This document shows, piece by piece, positions 1-33,018 of a stretch of 36,207 nucleotides of DNA. A program made the position numbers and the translations under genes. Source of the DNA: Sumerlaeia bacterium (lineage in GTDB: Bacteria; Sumerlaeota; Sumerlaeia; SLMS01; JAHLLQ01); the NCBI GenBank assembly GCA_040219255.1, contig JAVJSW010000070.1, positions 1 through 36,207 of the forward strand, written 5' to 3'. Positions within the stretch are counted from its first letter, which is position 1. Each line of letters opens with the position of its first letter. The notes beneath the pieces are model-generated. The model ran no database searches and had not been told where the DNA came from. It saw only the letters and a list, made by a program, of their open reading frames with translations.

Positions 1-87
1 CAACGCGCGACTGGCAAAAGCCGGATTGCGCAGCCTGACCGGCAGGTACCTGATGCTCAGAGGAAACGAAACCGCCGGATGCGACAT
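1..87 (-). CDS. Possible 5' end of a gene running off the left edge (MSHPAVSFPLSIRYLPVRLRNPAFASRAL...)
   Basis: ATG at 87 on the minus strand with an open frame to the window edge, divergent from the next gene. Only 29 codons are visible and no motif is recognisable. Confidence 0.25.
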   Translation of the reverse strand, partial: MSHPAVSFPLSIRYLPVRLRNPAFASRAL

Positions 88-159
88 CGCACGTCCGGTG
101 GTGTGAGAGGGGGGCAGGGCGACCTACCCCCCTACTCGATCTATCGAAAGGCAGTTCCC

Positions 160-23867: not shown

Positions 23868-25739
23868 TTAGACCAGGACCTGGTTTCGCCACAACTGAAA
23901 CACGAGCATGGACCACAATTGTCTTTCGCGATTGTAGGAGCCGGAGTCGTGTTCGGCCATCAGGCGCTGGGCCACATCGGCGTTCAAGAACCCGTCGCGG
24001 GCGAGGGCGTCGTGGGCCAAGGTGTCGTGGAGAAGGTCGCGAAGGGGCCCGCGGAACCAGTCGCGCAGGGGGACGGCGAAGCCTCGTTTGGGGCGCTCGA
24101 TCAATTCCCGGGGCACGTGCCGGAAGAGGATTTCGCGCAGCATGGCCTTGGGTTCGCGGGCGTTGCGCCATGCCGGGGGAAGCCCCATGGCCATTTCGGC
24201 AACGCGATAATCGAGCAAGGGAACGCGCATTTCGAGGCTGGCGCTCATGCTGGCGCGGTCGCCCTTCACCAGGATGTCGTCGGGCAGGTAGTGGCGAAGG
24301 TCGGCGTAGCCGGCGCGGGCGTCGAGCGAGGGGCCGGAGCGTTCGTTGGTGCCGCTGGCGTCGTCGTACAGCGCATGGAACGGATGGTCGTTGAAATCGT
24401 AGCGGTCGCCTCGGATTTGATTCGCCAATTCCGCATTCCAACCGATGAAGACGTGGCCGTACAGCTCCCGGTGGGTTCGATAGAGAAGGCCTCGGCCGAT
24501 GGTCTGATGCCGATAATTCGGCCTGTTGGCCAGCCAGGCGGCCACCTTGCGCCGGACTGCGCCGGGGACGAACTGCATTCGGGACTTAACCGTCAGGAGC
24601 CACTGATAGCGATCGTAACCGAGGAAGAGTTCATCGCCGCCATCGCCCGACAAAGCCACCGTCACATGATCGCGCGTCAGGCGAGAGAGCAGGACGGTGG
24701 GCAGAAAGGAGGCGTCGGCGAAAGGTTCGTCGCAGAGGGCGGGCATTTGCTCCACGAGCGGGAGGCAGTCCTCCGCGGTGGCGGTCAGTTCGTGATGCTC
24801 CGTGCCGAGGTGGCGAGCGACTTCGCGGGCGTGATCGGCTTCGTTGAAGTCCTTCTCGCGAAATCCGATGGTGAAGGTTTTGACGGGGCCGGAGGAGACC
24901 TTTTGCAGGAGCGCGGCGACGAGGGAGGAATCGATGCCGCCGCTCAGAAAGCAGCCGAGGGGAACGTCGCTCAGCGTGCGGGCGCGCACCGCGTCGGTCA
25001 GGAGTTCTTCGAGTTCCTCGACGGCCTCGGCGCGGTCGCGGGTGGGATGGGTGATGGCGGCAGGGGGCGTCGGCAGGGTCCACCATCGGCGGATGGCGAA
25101 CTCGCCGGTGGCGAAGTCGTATTCGAGGCGATGGCCCGGGGGCAGTTGACGCACGCCCGCGACGATGGTCTCGGGGTGGGGCACATAGTTGAAAAGAATG
25201 TAGTTGGAGAGGGCGTGCGAGTCGATGCCGCGGCGGACCCAGGGGAGTTTGAGGAGGGGTCGCAGCTCAGAGGCGAAGGCGAGGCGGCCTTCACTGGCGG
25301 TGTAGTAGAGGGGTTTGATTCCGAGGCGGTCGCGGTAGAGGTGGAGGCGTGCTTCAGCCGGGTCGTAGATCGCGAGGGCGAACATACCGTTGCACAGGGA
25401 GATGAACTCCGGGCCTTCGAATTCGAAGAGGCGCAGGAGGGTTTCCGTGTCGGTGGCGGAGCGCCAGGGGCAATCGGGAGAGATGCGCCGGCGCAGATCG
25501 CGATGGTTGTAGACCTCGCCGTTATAGACGGCGACGAGGCCCTTTTCCGGGAGGCTCATGGGTTGAGCCCCGCGCTCGCTCAGGTCGAGGATTGCCAGAC
25601 GGCGATGGGCCAGCGCGAGGCGTTCGTCGCGCCAGGCGCCGGTGGCGTCGGGCCCGCGATGCGCCAGGCAGGCGGTCATCTCGGCCAGGAGGTCCGGAGA
25701 GCATTCTTGTGGATGAGTGGTACCGACAATCCCGCACAT
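23868..25739 (-). CDS. asnB: Asparagine synthase (glutamine-hydrolysing) family amidotransferase
   Basis: MCGIVG N-terminal nucleophile, HRGPD, HRRLAILD, RDRLGIKPLYY, LSGGIDSS, LSGDGGDELFLGY, KRGFAVP. Confidence 0.95.
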   Translation of the reverse strand: MCGIVGTTHPQECSPDLLAEMTACLAHRGPDATGAWRDERLALAHRRLAILDLSERGAQPMSLPEKGLVAVYNGEVYNHRDLRRRISPDCPWRSATDTETLLRLFEFEGPEFISLCNGMFALAIYDPAEARLHLYRDRLGIKPLYYTASEGRLAFASELRPLLKLPWVRRGIDSHALSNYILFNYVPHPETIVAGVRQLPPGHRLEYDFATGEFAIRRWWTLPTPPAAITHPTRDRAEAVEELEELLTDAVRARTLSDVPLGCFLSGGIDSSLVAALLQKVSSGPVKTFTIGFREKDFNEADHAREVARHLGTEHHELTATAEDCLPLVEQMPALCDEPFADASFLPTVLLSRLTRDHVTVALSGDGGDELFLGYDRYQWLLTVKSRMQFVPGAVRRKVAAWLANRPNYRHQTIGRGLLYRTHRELYGHVFIGWNAELANQIRGDRYDFNDHPFHALYDDASGTNERSGPSLDARAGYADLRHYLPDDILVKGDRASMSASLEMRVPLLDYRVAEMAMGLPPAWRNAREPKAMLREILFRHVPRELIERPKRGFAVPLRDWFRGPLRDLLHDTLAHDALARDGFLNADVAQRLMAEHDSGSYNRERQLWSMLVFQLWRNQVLV

Positions 25740-25826
25740 AGCTTCAGAATGGGAAGCGACAGACGGGCCAGGGGCGAGAGAAAACGCCCCGGGTCATGCG
25801 ATAGTCCGCGTCGAGGGGGTGTGGGA

Positions 25827-26135
25827 TCAGGCGGTGGCTTTGTCCTGAGACCGGGCGATGGCGACTTTGCTGCGGACCGGGCGTGAGGAAGGCCGGCCGC
25901 TGCGGATCGAGAGGCGAACGTCGGTGCGTTTGGCGAGTTCGCGAAGTTGTTCGTCGCGGCGCTTCATGGCAACCTGGATGTCGTCGGTGGCCAGGGAACG
26001 GCGAATGCGTTCCTTGGTGTAGTTGGGAAGGTGAACCGTGCAATGGAACCACCAGGTCCCGTTGTTGTTCCACAGGTGGTGGTTGGGGTTCGCCTTCCGG
26101 CAGGCTTCGATCACGTGTTCAAAACGTTCGGACAT
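25827..26135 (-). CDS. Small basic hypothetical protein (NPNHHLWNNNGTWW...RIRRSL.T.D...A..RRD), resembling integrase arm-type DNA-binding domains
   Basis: 102-aa ORF with GC3 bias and a GGAG upstream. Three-strand-plus-helix pattern ending RRSLATDDIQVAMKRRD. Confidence 0.75.
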   Translation of the reverse strand: MSERFEHVIEACRKANPNHHLWNNNGTWWFHCTVHLPNYTKERIRRSLATDDIQVAMKRRDEQLRELAKRTDVRLSIRSGRPSSRPVRSKVAIARSQDKATA

Positions 26136-26292
26136 AGGAGGTGCTCCGCGCTTCGGGGCCGGGCGTTGGGGCCGGGCCAGGAATGGGGAGCATCGCCACG
26201 TCGGCCCAAACCCTCGTCACCGGCTCTCGCGCGAACGGGAGGTGGGGTGGGGGGGCCCTCATCCCCTAAGGAAAAAAGGGAGCGCGTCGTGC

Positions 26293-26381
26293 CCTGACGT
26301 GGCTGAAAGGTTTCGCGTGTACGAGTTCTTCCAGAAAAAGCCGTGGTCCTTACAACCGTGCGAATCTCCAGCTCCGTCAGG
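26293..26381 (-). ncRNA. Candidate structured RNA (multi-stem) upstream of the 102-aa gene
   Basis: Minus strand nested stems CCTGACG/CGTCAGG, GCTGGA/TTCAGC, TTCGC/GCGAA, enclosing hairpins GGT-TGTAAGG-ACC and ACG..TTTTTC-TG-GAAGAA..CGT. Family not identified. Confidence 0.5.
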
Positions 26382-26596
26382 TGCCGGATCGGTCAATACT
26401 TGCCGCCCGAAAAGAAAAATCCGGAGGGCTCCAATCCTGCGCGATGCTGTCGCCTTTTGTTGTGCAAAAAAGTCCTGTAAGCGACAAGCGTGAAATGTGC
26501 TCAGGAACAGAGAGTTTATAAAACGGTCACCGCAATTTATTGCCAGAAGACGATGCCATCGCAAGCTATCCAAGCGTTTTCAGTGTTCTATGACGC

Positions 26597-27751
26597 TCAG
26601 TAGGCCTCCGCGCCCGCTCCCGCCGCGGCGGGCCGCGCTTCCGCCAGTTTGATCGGCATCAGCACGCACAGGTGGTTGTCTTCGTCCTTGGCCTTGAAGA
26701 CGCAGGGCGAATGCTCGTTCTTGATGTGCATGGCGATTTCGGGCTTTTCGAAGCTGTCAAGGGTCTCGATCATCAACTGGTAGTTGAAGGCGATTTCCAT
26801 GGACTCGCCGTCGTATTCCACGGCCACGTCGCCGCTGAAGGTGCCGATGTCGGCGGCCATGCTGGTGAACTTGCAGGTGCCCGCTTCCAGATTGAGGATA
26901 ATGGACTTGCTCTTATCGTCGGAGACGACGCCGGCGCGGCGGGCGGCCATTTTGAAGAGGTCGCGATTGAGGCCCATCTGGGTGGTGAATTCTTTGGGGA
27001 TCACCTGGTCGCAGTCCGGGTACTTGCCTTCGATGGCGGTGGCGCGGAACTCCACGTCGCCGGCGCGGATGGCCACCTGGCGGTCGCCGACGGCGATGGT
27101 GACGGAGCCTTCGTCGCTGAGGACTTTGCGGATGTCGCCGAGGAGTTTGCCGCTGACGACGGTGCGGATGGACTCCAAGCCTTCGATGCTTTCGGCGGGC
27201 AATTCCATGCGCGAGAGTTTTTTGCCGTCCGTACCGGTGAGGCGCAGTGTCTTGTCGCGGGCTTCGAAGAGGGCGCCGAGGAGGACGCGGCGGTGGTCTT
27301 TCTGGGGTACGGCGTAGAGCACGGCGTCGAGGAGGGACTGGAAATCGCGCTGGGCCATCTTGAGGGTGCTGAGGGGTTTTTCCTCGGGCCGCTGGGGGTA
27401 GTCGTCCGCCGGCAGGGTGACCAGTTTGTAGTCGTTGCGGCCGCTGAAGACGCGCACCTGGCCGCCCTGGTCCTGGATGCTGACGTCCTGGCCGGCGGGC
27501 ATGAGGCCGATGAGCTGGGCCAGTTTGTCGGCGGGCAGGGTGAGCCGTTGGCCGGCGCCGCCCTCGACCTTGGCGGGGACGCGAATGCGCACCAGGTTGT
27601 CGAGGTCCGTGCCGAGGAAGGTGCACTCGTCCTCGCCCGTTTCGATCAGCAGATTGGCCAACACCGGCAACGTGGTCGTGGAACGGTTCAGGAGGCTGGC
27701 AACGATCGTAGCGGCACGTTTCACATCGCCTTGGTCGAAGGTCAAAAGCAC
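26597..27751 (-). CDS. dnaN: DNA polymerase III beta subunit (sliding clamp)
   Basis: TLPVLANLLI, GTDLD, LPADDYP, TGTDGKKLS, IEGKYPDCDQVIP, IAFNYQLMIETL, VLMPIK. GTG start at 27751 with GAGG SD. Confidence 0.93.
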   Translation of the reverse strand: MLLTFDQGDVKRAATIVASLLNRSTTTLPVLANLLIETGEDECTFLGTDLDNLVRIRVPAKVEGGAGQRLTLPADKLAQLIGLMPAGQDVSIQDQGGQVRVFSGRNDYKLVTLPADDYPQRPEEKPLSTLKMAQRDFQSLLDAVLYAVPQKDHRRVLLGALFEARDKTLRLTGTDGKKLSRMELPAESIEGLESIRTVVSGKLLGDIRKVLSDEGSVTIAVGDRQVAIRAGDVEFRATAIEGKYPDCDQVIPKEFTTQMGLNRDLFKMAARRAGVVSDDKSKSIILNLEAGTCKFTSMAADIGTFSGDVAVEYDGESMEIAFNYQLMIETLDSFEKPEIAMHIKNEHSPCVFKAKDEDNHLCVLMPIKLAEARPAAAGAGAEAY

Positions 27752-27874
27752 GGCGCAAATCCTCGCTTCCGGGGGTCGAAAATCGCTGGCGAGCCAGCCC
27801 ACCCTTGTGCGTCAACGGGCCGCCATAGGGCAAGGCCTAAACGGCGCGCCCTCAGCCTTAGGACGCCCTTCACC

Positions 27875-29560: not shown

Positions 29561-32740
<3,180 letters not shown>

Positions 32741-32948: not shown

Positions 32949-32971
32949 AGGCTTCGGCCTGACAGTCTGCG

Positions 32972-33018
32972 CGCCGCCCCGGGCCGTTTCGACGACGGCC
33001 CGGGGCGGCGTCTTTCTT
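32972..33018 (+). terminator. Rho-independent terminator
   Basis: Perfect 16-bp stem CGCCGCCCCGGGCCGT/ACGGCCCGGGGCGGCG followed by TCTTTCTT. Confidence 0.85.

What the first reader, a model, noticed from the sequence alone, without database searches (positions are those of the whole stretch)
26120..26400. Structured RNA-like leader with a competing pairing and an occluded SD upstream of a small conserved-looking protein
Seen (minus strand): an ~89-nt element with three nested closing stems around two hairpins (26381 to 26293). Its 3' strand GCCACGTC has an exact 8-nt complement, GACGTGGC, about 95 nt downstream (26202-26195), allowing a mutually exclusive fold. Directly before the ATG, the GGAG is followed by CAC-CTCC, a mini-hairpin able to hide the SD. 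I could not match it to the riboswitch consensus sequences I recall. Inference: a cis-regulatory RNA or an sRNA paired with the adjacent protein, possibly an RNA-protein module.
Basis: partly seen in the sequence, partly recalled or inferred. Interest (0 to 1): 0.75.

Follow-up and report, generated by a model that had tools for sequence, protein, structure and literature searches.

The report
SAM riboswitch leader that lost its aptamer
The flagged RNA hairpin sits in the leader of a small conserved gene that in related bacteria carries a SAM-sensing riboswitch; here the sensor part is gone and only the conserved on/off hairpins around the ribosome-binding site remain.

Summary
The 89-nt fold ranks in the top 3% of same-length windows of this contig. 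The 8-nt complement is what shuffled sequence gives. Rfam finds nothing in the window's leader.

The context explains the locus. The 102-aa ORF belongs to a widespread small-protein family of Verrucomicrobiota and Sumerlaeota-like genomes, resembling the DNA-binding arm domain of integrases. In 148 of 161 homologous loci the gene follows a SAM-I/IV riboswitch aptamer. Every SAM-I/IV match reported in 7 of 8 genomes checked was that one.

The window is an exception. It keeps the exact 5' switch strand CAGCAUCGCG (26449-26440). It also keeps the 3' platform, in which GCGAUGCUCC pairs either with that strand or with the SD GGAGCA. Synonymous sites are saturated against the nearest relative, so the retained strands are under selection.

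Best reading: an aptamer-less, probably SAM-blind, default-ON remnant of a SAM-OFF translational riboswitch. A newly grafted sensor domain cannot be excluded.

The parts
26597..27802 (-). dnaN (DNA polymerase III beta clamp), the upstream gene
   Evidence: Pfam DNA_pol3_beta N-terminal, central and C-terminal domains, E 5e-23 to 2e-19. The same gene lies upstream in G001, G002 and G007.
26440..26449 (-). CAGCAUCGCG: the 5' switch strand. In relatives it is the 5' strand of aptamer helix P1. AGCAUCGC (26448-26441) is an exact complement of 26196-26189 and acts as the anti-sequestor.
   Evidence: Identical 10-mer in all 4 orthologous leaders, although dS against the nearest relative is about 1.6. 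The Rfam alignments place it in P1. The 8-mer complement was found.
26203..26439 (-). Orphan insert standing where relatives have the SAM-I/IV aptamer and linker.
   Evidence: No blastn similarity to relatives' leaders apart from chance-level matches of 26 nt or less, E 2 to 40. No other copy in the window's genome or in 10 genomes of the same family. No RF01725 or R1 hit. No CAACC or CUACC.
26293..26381 (-).
   Evidence: -33.0 kcal/mol, z -3.43, but only in the top 3% of same-length windows of the contig. Not conserved.
26195..26202 (-). It may be a relic of the relatives' P1-3'/P4-5' sequence AUGUGGCG.
   Evidence: ACGUGGCG differs from the relatives' AUGUGGCG by 1 mismatch, but 268 of 2000 shuffles give such a match. 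This is a weak hint only.
26187..26196 (-). GCGAUGCUCC, the shared strand. GCGAUGCU pairs with the 5' switch strand; UGCUCC (26192-26187) pairs with the SD.
   Evidence: GCGATGCTCCC is invariant in 4 of 4 leaders (A5). The SD-sequestering helix appears in the minimum-free-energy fold.
26148..26186 (-). Inner part of the sequestor stem-loop: UUC...GAA plus a G+C-rich hairpin
   Evidence: UUC and GAA are kept in 4 of 4 leaders. The inner hairpin differs in sequence but stays paired (GGUCU/AGACC, GGGC/GCCC, GGCCC/GGGCC). This was read by eye from A5.
26142..26147 (-). GGAGCA, holding the Shine-Dalgarno sequence GGAG. It is the 3' strand of the sequestor helix.
   Evidence: GGAGCA is invariant in 4 of 4 leaders. 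SD pairing probability is 0.86-1.0 in the ensemble.
25827..26135 (-). 102-aa ORF of a small conserved family (HHLWNNNGTWW..H.T.H..YTK.R.R.SL.T.D..A..RRD), like the integrase arm DNA-binding domain and DUF6538
   Evidence: Orthologues at 83%, 63% and 64% identity. dN/dS is about 0.13 and 0.21. 14 columns are invariant across 58 sequences. DUF6538 scores 22.1 bits, under the 27-bit cut-off. AF2 mean pLDDT is 82.8.
23868..25739 (-). Asparagine synthase-like gene downstream
   Evidence: Pfam Asn_synthase E 4e-103 plus GATase_6/7. The same kind of neighbour follows in G002.

Best explanation
The 461-nt spacer between dnaN and the 102-aa gene is the leader of that gene, and it descends from a SAM-I/IV riboswitch.

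How the relatives work (inferred from sequence). The 5' strand AGCAUCGC has two possible partners. It can close aptamer helix P1 when SAM is bound, or it can pair with GCGAUGCU about 100-175 nt downstream. When SAM holds it in P1, the downstream UGCUCC is free to pair with the SD GGAGCA, and translation is off.

What the window has. Both switch strands and the SD hairpin are kept, but the SAM-binding core (P2, P3 with CAACC...GGUG, P4) is absent.

Likely behaviour. Nothing is left to capture the 5' strand. It should therefore pair with GCGAUGCU as soon as that strand is transcribed, leaving the SD open. The leader would then be SAM-blind and ON by default. The anti-sequestor is kept by selection because losing it would silence the gene.

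Shown: homology of the flanks, absence of the aptamer, selection on the flanks. Inferred: the switching logic and the default-ON outcome. The confidence given is for the whole statement; descent from a SAM-I/IV leader with the aptamer now absent I hold at about 0.85, the default-ON outcome at about 0.5.
For: Riboswitch in relatives:
- Orthologous leaders carry RF01725 at 48.1, 41.1 and 27.2 bits.
- A family-specific model of the aptamer's 5' half (R1) hits 77 of 81 and 71 of 80 homologous loci at 25-74 bits.
- Helix P3 covaries: 94.8% of cells are paired, 6 of 10 pairs change on both sides, and 0 of 500 shuffles reach the observed score.

No aptamer in the window:
- No Rfam hit of any riboswitch family at E <= 10 in 25700-26700.
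- With filters off, none of R1's 19 hits at E <= 10 falls in 26130-26600.
- No CAACC or CUACC in the leader, although C.ACC (CAACC, once CUACC) is kept in all 54 aligned aptamers.
- The whole genome has no RF01725 hit over the cut-off; the best is 18.6 bits, elsewhere.

Flanks kept:
- blastn finds only 26454-26440 and 26206-26130 similar to the relatives.
- CAGCAUCGCG, GCGAUGCUCCC, UUC, GAA and GGAGCA are identical in 4 of 4 leaders.
- dS between the window and its nearest orthologue is about 1.58, so neutral sequence would be scrambled.

Two-state design:
- With the anti-sequestor enforced, the fold lies within 0-4.7 kcal/mol of the minimum-free-energy fold in all 4 leaders; in the window -128.5 against -129.5.
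- In 34 of 124 distinct leaders the P1 5' region has a perfect complement of 8 nt or more further downstream. The mean longest complement is 6.4 nt against 4.5 nt in shuffles.
Against: - No experiment or RNA data. No RNA run was listed, so the transcription start, and whether the 5' strand is in the mRNA at all, are unknown.
- The promoter block conserved in the three relatives is not clearly present in the window. This is my reading.
- Selection on both switch strands fits a leader that still switches as well as it fits a default-ON remnant.
- The 89-nt element is a well-defined fold: z -3.43, with the minimum-free-energy structure holding 17% of the ensemble.
- The predicted minimum-free-energy fold of the window's leader has the SD sequestered, not open.
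- The switch helices are invariant, so they give no covariation support.
- The perfect-complement test passes in only 34 of 124 leaders.
Confidence: 0.6

Rival explanations
1. Aptamer swap. The orphan domain 26439-26203, including the 89-nt three-way junction, is a new sensor grafted between the conserved switch strands. It would sense another ligand, temperature or a protein, possibly the small protein itself. The reader's GCCACGUC/GACGUGGC pairing could relay its state to the adjacent GCGAUGCU.
For: - Both switch strands are under selection although the SAM aptamer is gone.
- The insert lies exactly where the aptamer lies in relatives.
- The 89-nt fold has z -3.43.
- GACGUGGC overlaps GCGAUGCU by 2 nt, so the helices would compete.
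Against: - The fold is only in the top 3% of the contig.
- The 8-mer complement is at chance level, with 239 of 500 shuffles reaching the observed count.
- The rest of the insert is not unusually stable: z +0.96 and -1.70.
- No homologue exists anywhere searched, so covariation cannot be tested.
- No Rfam family matches.
- The flanks would also be kept in a default-ON remnant.
Confidence: 0.15
2. A SAM-I/IV aptamer is still present but too diverged, or too interrupted by insertions, for the covariance models to see.
For: - The P1 5' strand and part of J1/2 (GCAUCGCG) are intact.
- A possible P1-3'/P4-5' relic, ACGUGGCG, lies next to the platform.
- G002's real aptamer scores only 27.2 bits with Rfam.
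Against: - R1 gives 41.6-48.3 bits for the three Sumerlaeota-like relatives, and 24.9 bits for its weakest hit among the loci (L050). With filters off it gives nothing at E <= 10 in the window's leader.
- The C.ACC core, present in all 54 aligned aptamers, does not occur.
- The relic match is expected by chance in 268 of 2000 shuffles.
Confidence: 0.05
3. The 89-nt element is a separate small RNA or a mobile or repeat element, or the spacer is an assembly artefact.
For: - The element has inverted termini CCUGACG/CGUCAGG.
- The spacer (461 nt) is longer than in G002 (288 nt).
Against: - No second copy in the genome; the best other match is 21 nt.
- No promoter- or terminator-like site on the minus strand.
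- One DNA run holds 0.66 of the sampled words of the stretch.
- The flanks are colinear with the relatives.
Confidence: 0.05

Closest known systems
SAM-I/IV (SAM-I-IV-variant) riboswitch, Rfam RF01725. It was listed as 'Several phyla, marine' in Weinberg et al. 2010 (PMC2864571), of which I read passages only.
   Same: - The same orthologous gene, in the same position after dnaN, carries RF01725 in G001 (48.1 bits) and G007 (41.1 bits).
- The window keeps the P1 5' strand and the whole downstream SD-sequestering platform.
   Different: - The window has no P2, P3 or P4 and no C.ACC...GGUG core.
- It has no hit with RF01725 or with the family-specific model.
- About 240 nt of unrelated sequence stands in their place.
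Translational SAM-OFF riboswitches that hide the SD in an alternative helix (general riboswitch knowledge, recalled)
   Same: Three-strand logic. One strand chooses between a 5' partner and the SD, and the two states are near-isoenergetic.
   Different: In the window no ligand-binding domain is recognisable to bias the choice.
Arm-type DNA-binding domains of tyrosine integrases: Pfam DUF6538 (PF20172), Arm-DNA-bind families, Integrase_DNA
   Same: - 48 of 58 family members match DUF6538 at E <= 0.01.
- The model is a three-stranded sheet followed by a helix.
- The nearest named protein-atlas clusters are integrase DNA-binding and Arm-DNA-bind families at 0.91-0.92.
- Weak Foldseek matches to phage integrases, for example rmsd 1.3 over 49 columns at E 0.11.
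   Different: - The protein is only 65-125 aa long, with no recombinase domain, at all 157 loci where an ORF could be read.
- The window protein is under Pfam's cut-off (22.1 against 27 bits).
- It has its own invariant HH..W.NNG.WW..H.T.H signature.
- It is placed under a riboswitch.
- I did not search for longer, fused forms.

Membership tests
SAM-I/IV riboswitch (RF01725) | Covariance-model score at or above the gathering score of 41.1 bits | tested here: not met
   The window gives no RF01725 match even at E <= 10 in 25700-26700. Over the whole genome the best is 18.6 bits, at another place. Relatives score 48.1, 41.1 and 27.2 bits.
SAM-I/IV riboswitch (RF01725) | P3 helix with the core C.ACC ... 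GGUG | tested here: not met
   The core is kept in 54 of 54 aligned aptamers and the helix covaries. The window's leader has no CAACC or CUACC and no R1 hit with filters off.
SAM-I/IV riboswitch (RF01725) | P1 helix: 5' GCAUC with a 3' GAUG partner, and J1/2 ..GAG | tested here: inconclusive
   The 5' strand CAGCAUCGCG is intact. J1/2 reads GCGCAGG instead of GCGAG. A candidate 3' strand, GACGU, would pair with one mismatch, and its match to the relatives is at chance level (268 of 2000).
SAM-I/IV riboswitch (RF01725) | P4 hairpin 3' of P1 | tested here: not met
   In the window GUGGCG runs straight into AUGCUCC, with no hairpin between. Relatives have P4 there.
SAM-I/IV riboswitch (RF01725) | Binds S-adenosylmethionine | not testable with these tools
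   Needs in-line probing or ITC.
SAM-I/IV riboswitch (RF01725) | Sits in the 5' leader of the same orthologous gene as confirmed members | tested here: met
   The gene order dnaN, leader, small gene is shared with G001, G002 and G007.
DUF6538 (PF20172) / integrase arm-type DNA-binding domain | Pfam score at or above the gathering score of 27 bits | tested here: not met
   The window protein scores 22.1 bits, E 1.2e-4. 48 of 58 family members match at E <= 0.01, best 2.3e-6.
DUF6538 (PF20172) / integrase arm-type DNA-binding domain | Three-stranded antiparallel sheet packed against a helix | tested here: inconclusive
   The AF2 model has strands 21-24, 27-35 and 41-47 and a helix 53-69, with pLDDT 93-97 in the core. 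No Foldseek hit at E <= 0.001 in PDB or BFVD; weak integrase and AP2 rows only. The VIA-align libraries were not available.

The most novel reading that the evidence does not exclude
The SAM-I/IV riboswitch of Verrucomicrobiota and Sumerlaeota-like bacteria is dedicated to one small arm-type DNA-binding protein. Each genome in which a match was found had exactly one, and no SAM-I or SAM-IV match was found in the four genomes checked. The protein could therefore be the output of a riboswitch-to-transcription-factor relay for the methionine/SAM regulon. In this window's lineage the relay would have been rewired: the SAM aptamer was exchanged for a new, unrelated sensor domain (26439-26203) on the same conserved expression platform.
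Probability: 0.1. Interest if true: 0.85.

Novelty: new variant of a known kind. Interest (0 to 1): 0.45.

Why it matters
- It is a natural case in which a riboswitch's expression platform stays under purifying selection after its aptamer has gone. That bears on how riboswitches decay or exchange sensor domains.
- The locus points to a riboswitch-protein pairing for which I found nothing in print.
- In that pairing, the SAM-I/IV match found in each genome checked precedes a tiny DNA-binding-like protein of unknown function. In 4 loci the small gene is directly followed by metK.
- If the protein is a regulator, this would be a riboswitch-to-regulator relay in two poorly studied phyla.
- For the scan itself: an attractive hairpin and an exact 8-mer complement in a G+C-rich spacer were chance-level, while the real switch strands showed up only by comparison with relatives.

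Tried and rejected
- Rfam on the window, at gathering scores and at E <= 10. Nothing in the leader; the four rows at 10-15 bits (lncRNA, snoRNA and Chlorobi-1 models) are noise.
- Consensus promoter and terminator scan. No site on the minus strand.
- MAFFT alignment of the four whole leaders (A2). It misplaced the window's CAGCAUCGCG, so I did not use it and used blastn and reading by eye instead.
- MAFFT alignment of 13 whole aptamers (A1). The 3' half was badly aligned, so the model was built on the 5' half only (A3, R1). RNAalifold recovered P3 but not P2.
- The idea that the window arose by a deletion between two GCGA repeats, joining the relatives' GUGGCGA to GCGAUGCUCC. It is attractive by eye, but the relic match occurs in 268 of 2000 shuffles, so it is kept only as a weak hint.
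- The 47-aa ORF 26262..26119 and the 104-aa TTG ORF 26573..26259 inside the leader. I did not test them and take them as spurious.
- Repeat or mobile-element origin of the insert. No second copy was found.
- Protein fold searches. PDB and BFVD gave no hit at E <= 0.001. A profile against PDB sequences gave nothing below E 0.8. NCBIfam gave nothing.
- SAM-I, SAM-IV and SAM-II family searches in G000, G001, G002 and G007 found nothing. Only 150 candidates per genome were scored, and the SAM-II control matched in no control genome, so this is weak.
- Sequencing runs. No RNA holder was listed, and one DNA run holds 0.66 of the words.
- Complex prediction, the search for homologous proteins, the search of protein representatives and the listing of cluster members were not used. 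I did not search for longer, fused forms of the protein.
Full report
**Layout.** On the minus strand the window holds three genes in a row:
- dnaN at 27802-26597, with the three DNA_pol3_beta domains;
- a 461-nt spacer, then a 102-aa ORF at 26135-25827;
- an asparagine-synthase-like gene at 25739-23868.

The finding lies in the spacer.

**The observation.**
Energy is -33.0 kcal/mol, z -3.43 against 200 dinucleotide shuffles, and 0 of 200 fold as well.
- The exact 8-mers GCCACGUC (26303-26296) and GACGUGGC (26202-26195) are there, and so is GGAG-CAC-CUCC (26147-26137).
- None of this exceeds what a search through a G+C-rich spacer yields.
  - Of 703 same-length windows of the contig within +/-4% G+C, 22 fold at least as well. 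By regression on G+C, 145 of 4816 (3.0%) are as extreme.
  - The neighbouring stretches have z -1.70 and +0.96. The whole spacer has z -1.07.
  - The spacer has two perfect 8-nt inverted repeats. Shuffles give 1.83 +/- 1.75, and 239 of 500 reach two or more.
- Rfam finds no family in the leader, at gathering scores or at E <= 10.

**The protein and its relatives.**
- The 102-aa protein has orthologues at 83%, 63% and 64% identity in three genomes of the same family (G001, G002, G007). Each follows dnaN.
- It is under purifying selection: dN/dS is about 0.13 and 0.21, with dS about 1.6, which is saturated.
- Scans found 293 relatives in species genomes and at least 397 in metagenomes. The best 80 of each were kept. 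Nearly all named ones are Verrucomicrobiota (Opitutae, Chthoniobacterales and others). The two nearest are titled Candidatus Sumerlaeota and Sumerlaeia.
- At all 157 loci where an ORF could be read, the product is 65-125 aa or so.
- It has an invariant signature, HH.W.NNG.WW..H.T.H ... R.R.SL.T ... A...RD.
- Evidence on its fold:
  - 48 of 58 members match Pfam DUF6538 at E <= 0.01; the window protein scores 22.1 bits, below the 27-bit cut-off.
  - The AF2 model (mean pLDDT 82.8, core 93-97) is a helix, a three-stranded sheet and a helix.
  - Foldseek gives nothing at E <= 0.001 in PDB or BFVD. The weak viral rows include integrases and an AP2/ERF protein.
  - The nearest named protein-atlas clusters are integrase DNA-binding and Arm-DNA-bind families at 0.91-0.92.
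- I read it as a stand-alone DNA-binding domain of the integrase-arm type. Its function is unknown.

**The riboswitch in relatives.**
- In the three orthologous leaders Rfam finds SAM-I/IV (RF01725) at 48.1, 41.1 and 27.2 bits; the gathering score is 41.1.
- Of 20 diverse Verrucomicrobiota loci, 10 match at E <= 0.1 and 5 reach the gathering score.
- I built a model of the aptamer's 5' half from 54 non-redundant leaders (A3, R1).
  - Helix P3 covaries: 94.8% of cells are paired, 6 of 10 pairs change on both sides, and 0 of 500 shuffles reach the score.
  - R1 hits 77 of 81 and 71 of 80 loci upstream of the gene, at 25-74 bits. That is 148 of 161.
  - Of the 13 loci without a hit, 5 have under 265 nt of sequence upstream.
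  - In L112, L159, L161 and L163 the hit lies 445-760 nt upstream.
  - The loci are not independent. Many are close kin, and some records occur in both collections.
- The pairing is exclusive as far as checked.
  - In G001, G002 and G007 the only RF01725 match in the genome is this one. Two family genomes without the protein have none.
  - In 4 of 5 Verrucomicrobiota genomes the single match is again this one. The fifth, G042, gave none in that search, although cmscan had given 44.1 bits at its locus L073. One of the four, G043, is flagged unpublished.
- No SAM-I or SAM-IV match turned up in G000, G001, G002 or G007. Only 150 candidates per genome were scored. The SAM-II search is uninformative because its control matched nowhere.
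- In 4 of 163 loci (L167, L051, L131, L139) metK follows the small gene directly. That ties the module to SAM metabolism.

**How the relatives' switch is built (inferred).**
- Rfam places GCAUC in the 5' strand of P1, with GAUGU or AUGU as its 3' partner.
- The same 5' strand, AGCAUCGC, is an exact complement of GCGAUGCU 100-175 nt further on.
- That downstream strand continues as UGCUCC, which pairs with the SD GGAGCA around a UUC/GAA step and a variable hairpin.
- With SAM bound, P1 holds the 5' strand and the SD is hidden. Without SAM, the long-range helix forms and the SD is free.
- Enforcing the long-range helix costs 0-4.7 kcal/mol in the four leaders.
- Across the family, 34 of 124 distinct leaders have a perfect downstream complement of 8 nt or more to the P1 5' region. 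The mean is 6.4 nt against 4.5 nt in shuffles. Others use terminators; that is my reading.

**The window is the exception.**
- blastn against the three leaders finds only two similar pieces: 26454-26440 (GACAGCAUCGCG...) and 26206-26130 (the platform).
- CAGCAUCGCG, GCGAUGCUCCC, UUC, GAA and GGAGCA are identical in all four. With dS about 1.6 this requires selection.
- Between them the aptamer is missing.
  - R1 with filters off gives 19 hits at E <= 10 in the 36 kb, none in 26130-26600.
  - The C.ACC core kept in all 54 aligned aptamers does not occur.
  - The genome has no RF01725 hit over the cut-off.
- In its place stand about 240 nt with no copy in the window's genome and none in 10 genomes of the same family.
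Such a match arises in 268 of 2000 shuffles, so it is a hint and no more.
The conserved partner of the SD is UGCUCC at 26192-26187.

**Mechanism proposed for the window.** With no aptamer to capture AGCAUCGC, that strand should pair with GCGAUGCU as soon as it is made, about 45 nt before the SD is transcribed. This would leave the SD open, giving a SAM-blind, default-ON leader. Selection would keep the anti-sequestor because its loss would silence the gene. This outcome is inferred. The equilibrium fold has the SD closed by 1 kcal/mol. The transcription start is unknown, and no RNA data were found.

**Rivals.**
- The orphan domain is a new sensor on the old platform. The selected flanks and the tidy 89-nt fold allow this, but nothing supports it positively.
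- A cryptic aptamer is still there. This is unlikely given.
- The element is an sRNA, a repeat or an artefact. No evidence supports this.

**Comparison with the known.**
- The leader is not a member of RF01725. Four defining features were tested: three were not met and one (P1) was inconclusive.
- It is homologous to members at its two ends, and it works like the expression platform of a translational SAM-OFF switch.
- In print I found the riboswitch class itself (PMC2864571, passages read). I found nothing on its pairing with this protein family, on DUF6538, or on riboswitches in Sumerlaeota. The paper's Additional File 1 may list gene associations.

**Verdict.**
- The locus is nevertheless a real regulatory leader: a SAM-I/IV riboswitch that lost its aptamer while its switch strands stayed under selection, in front of a small protein that is this riboswitch's regular partner.
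- Novelty: a new variant of a known kind.
- Interest is moderate. It would be higher if the orphan domain senses something, or if the protein proves to be a riboswitch-controlled regulator.

Noticed in passing
L191:644-1384 (-), L193:1704-2480 (+), L192, L194; genomes G014, G016, G020, G021, G024: In a sister family of the same order, near-cut-off RF01725 matches (27.7-39.2 bits) followed by terminator-like hairpins precede a different unknown protein of about 250 aa with no Pfam match at E <= 0.1. In L194 the protein is 220 aa with an 'NNPYHHI' N-terminus. The 102-aa protein was not found in these genomes.
   Followed up: partly
L167:918-2275, L051, L131, L139: metK (S-adenosylmethionine synthetase) lies directly downstream of the small gene, overlapping it or within 21 nt, in 4 of 163 loci. 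There the riboswitch, the small gene and metK look like one operon.
   Followed up: partly
window 25827-26135 (-) and homologues: The short strand motif L(S/A)IR lies at the N-terminus in most Verrucomicrobiota members but at the C-terminus (LSIRSGR) in the four Sumerlaeota-like ones. Four conserved histidines (H19, H20, H31, H35) might form a metal site.
   Followed up: no
window 26557-26562 (-): A second GCGAUG lies 35 nt after the dnaN stop. In the fold of the whole spacer it pairs with CAUCGC of the 5' switch strand. Read-through transcripts from dnaN might therefore keep the SD closed.
   Followed up: no
window 70-140 (+): Group II intron match (RF00029), 43.3 bits against a gathering score of 40, at the very start of the contig.
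   Followed up: no
window 32971-33018 (+): A perfect 18-bp G+C-rich hairpin followed by UCUUUCUU, in the gap after the 1089-aa ORF ending at 32740 (a UAA stands at about 32946). It looks like an ordinary intrinsic terminator. It was the most stable 89-nt window of the contig.
   Followed up: partly
L003:2041-2080 (-), L004:1235-1273, L005:1187-1226: A conserved block, UCCCCCUUG(3-4 nt)GGUAGGA, then about 14 nt, then UAG, lies just upstream of the riboswitch in the three relatives. It looks like a promoter. The window has only CUUGUC at the matching place.
   Followed up: no
L068, L106, L107, L147, L165, L152, L036, L091: Eight homologous loci with enough upstream sequence also lack the aptamer. 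Five of them (L068, L106, L107, L147, L165) form a subgroup with DHNIWNNNGTWW and longer C-termini, and L152 reads DHNLW.
   Followed up: no
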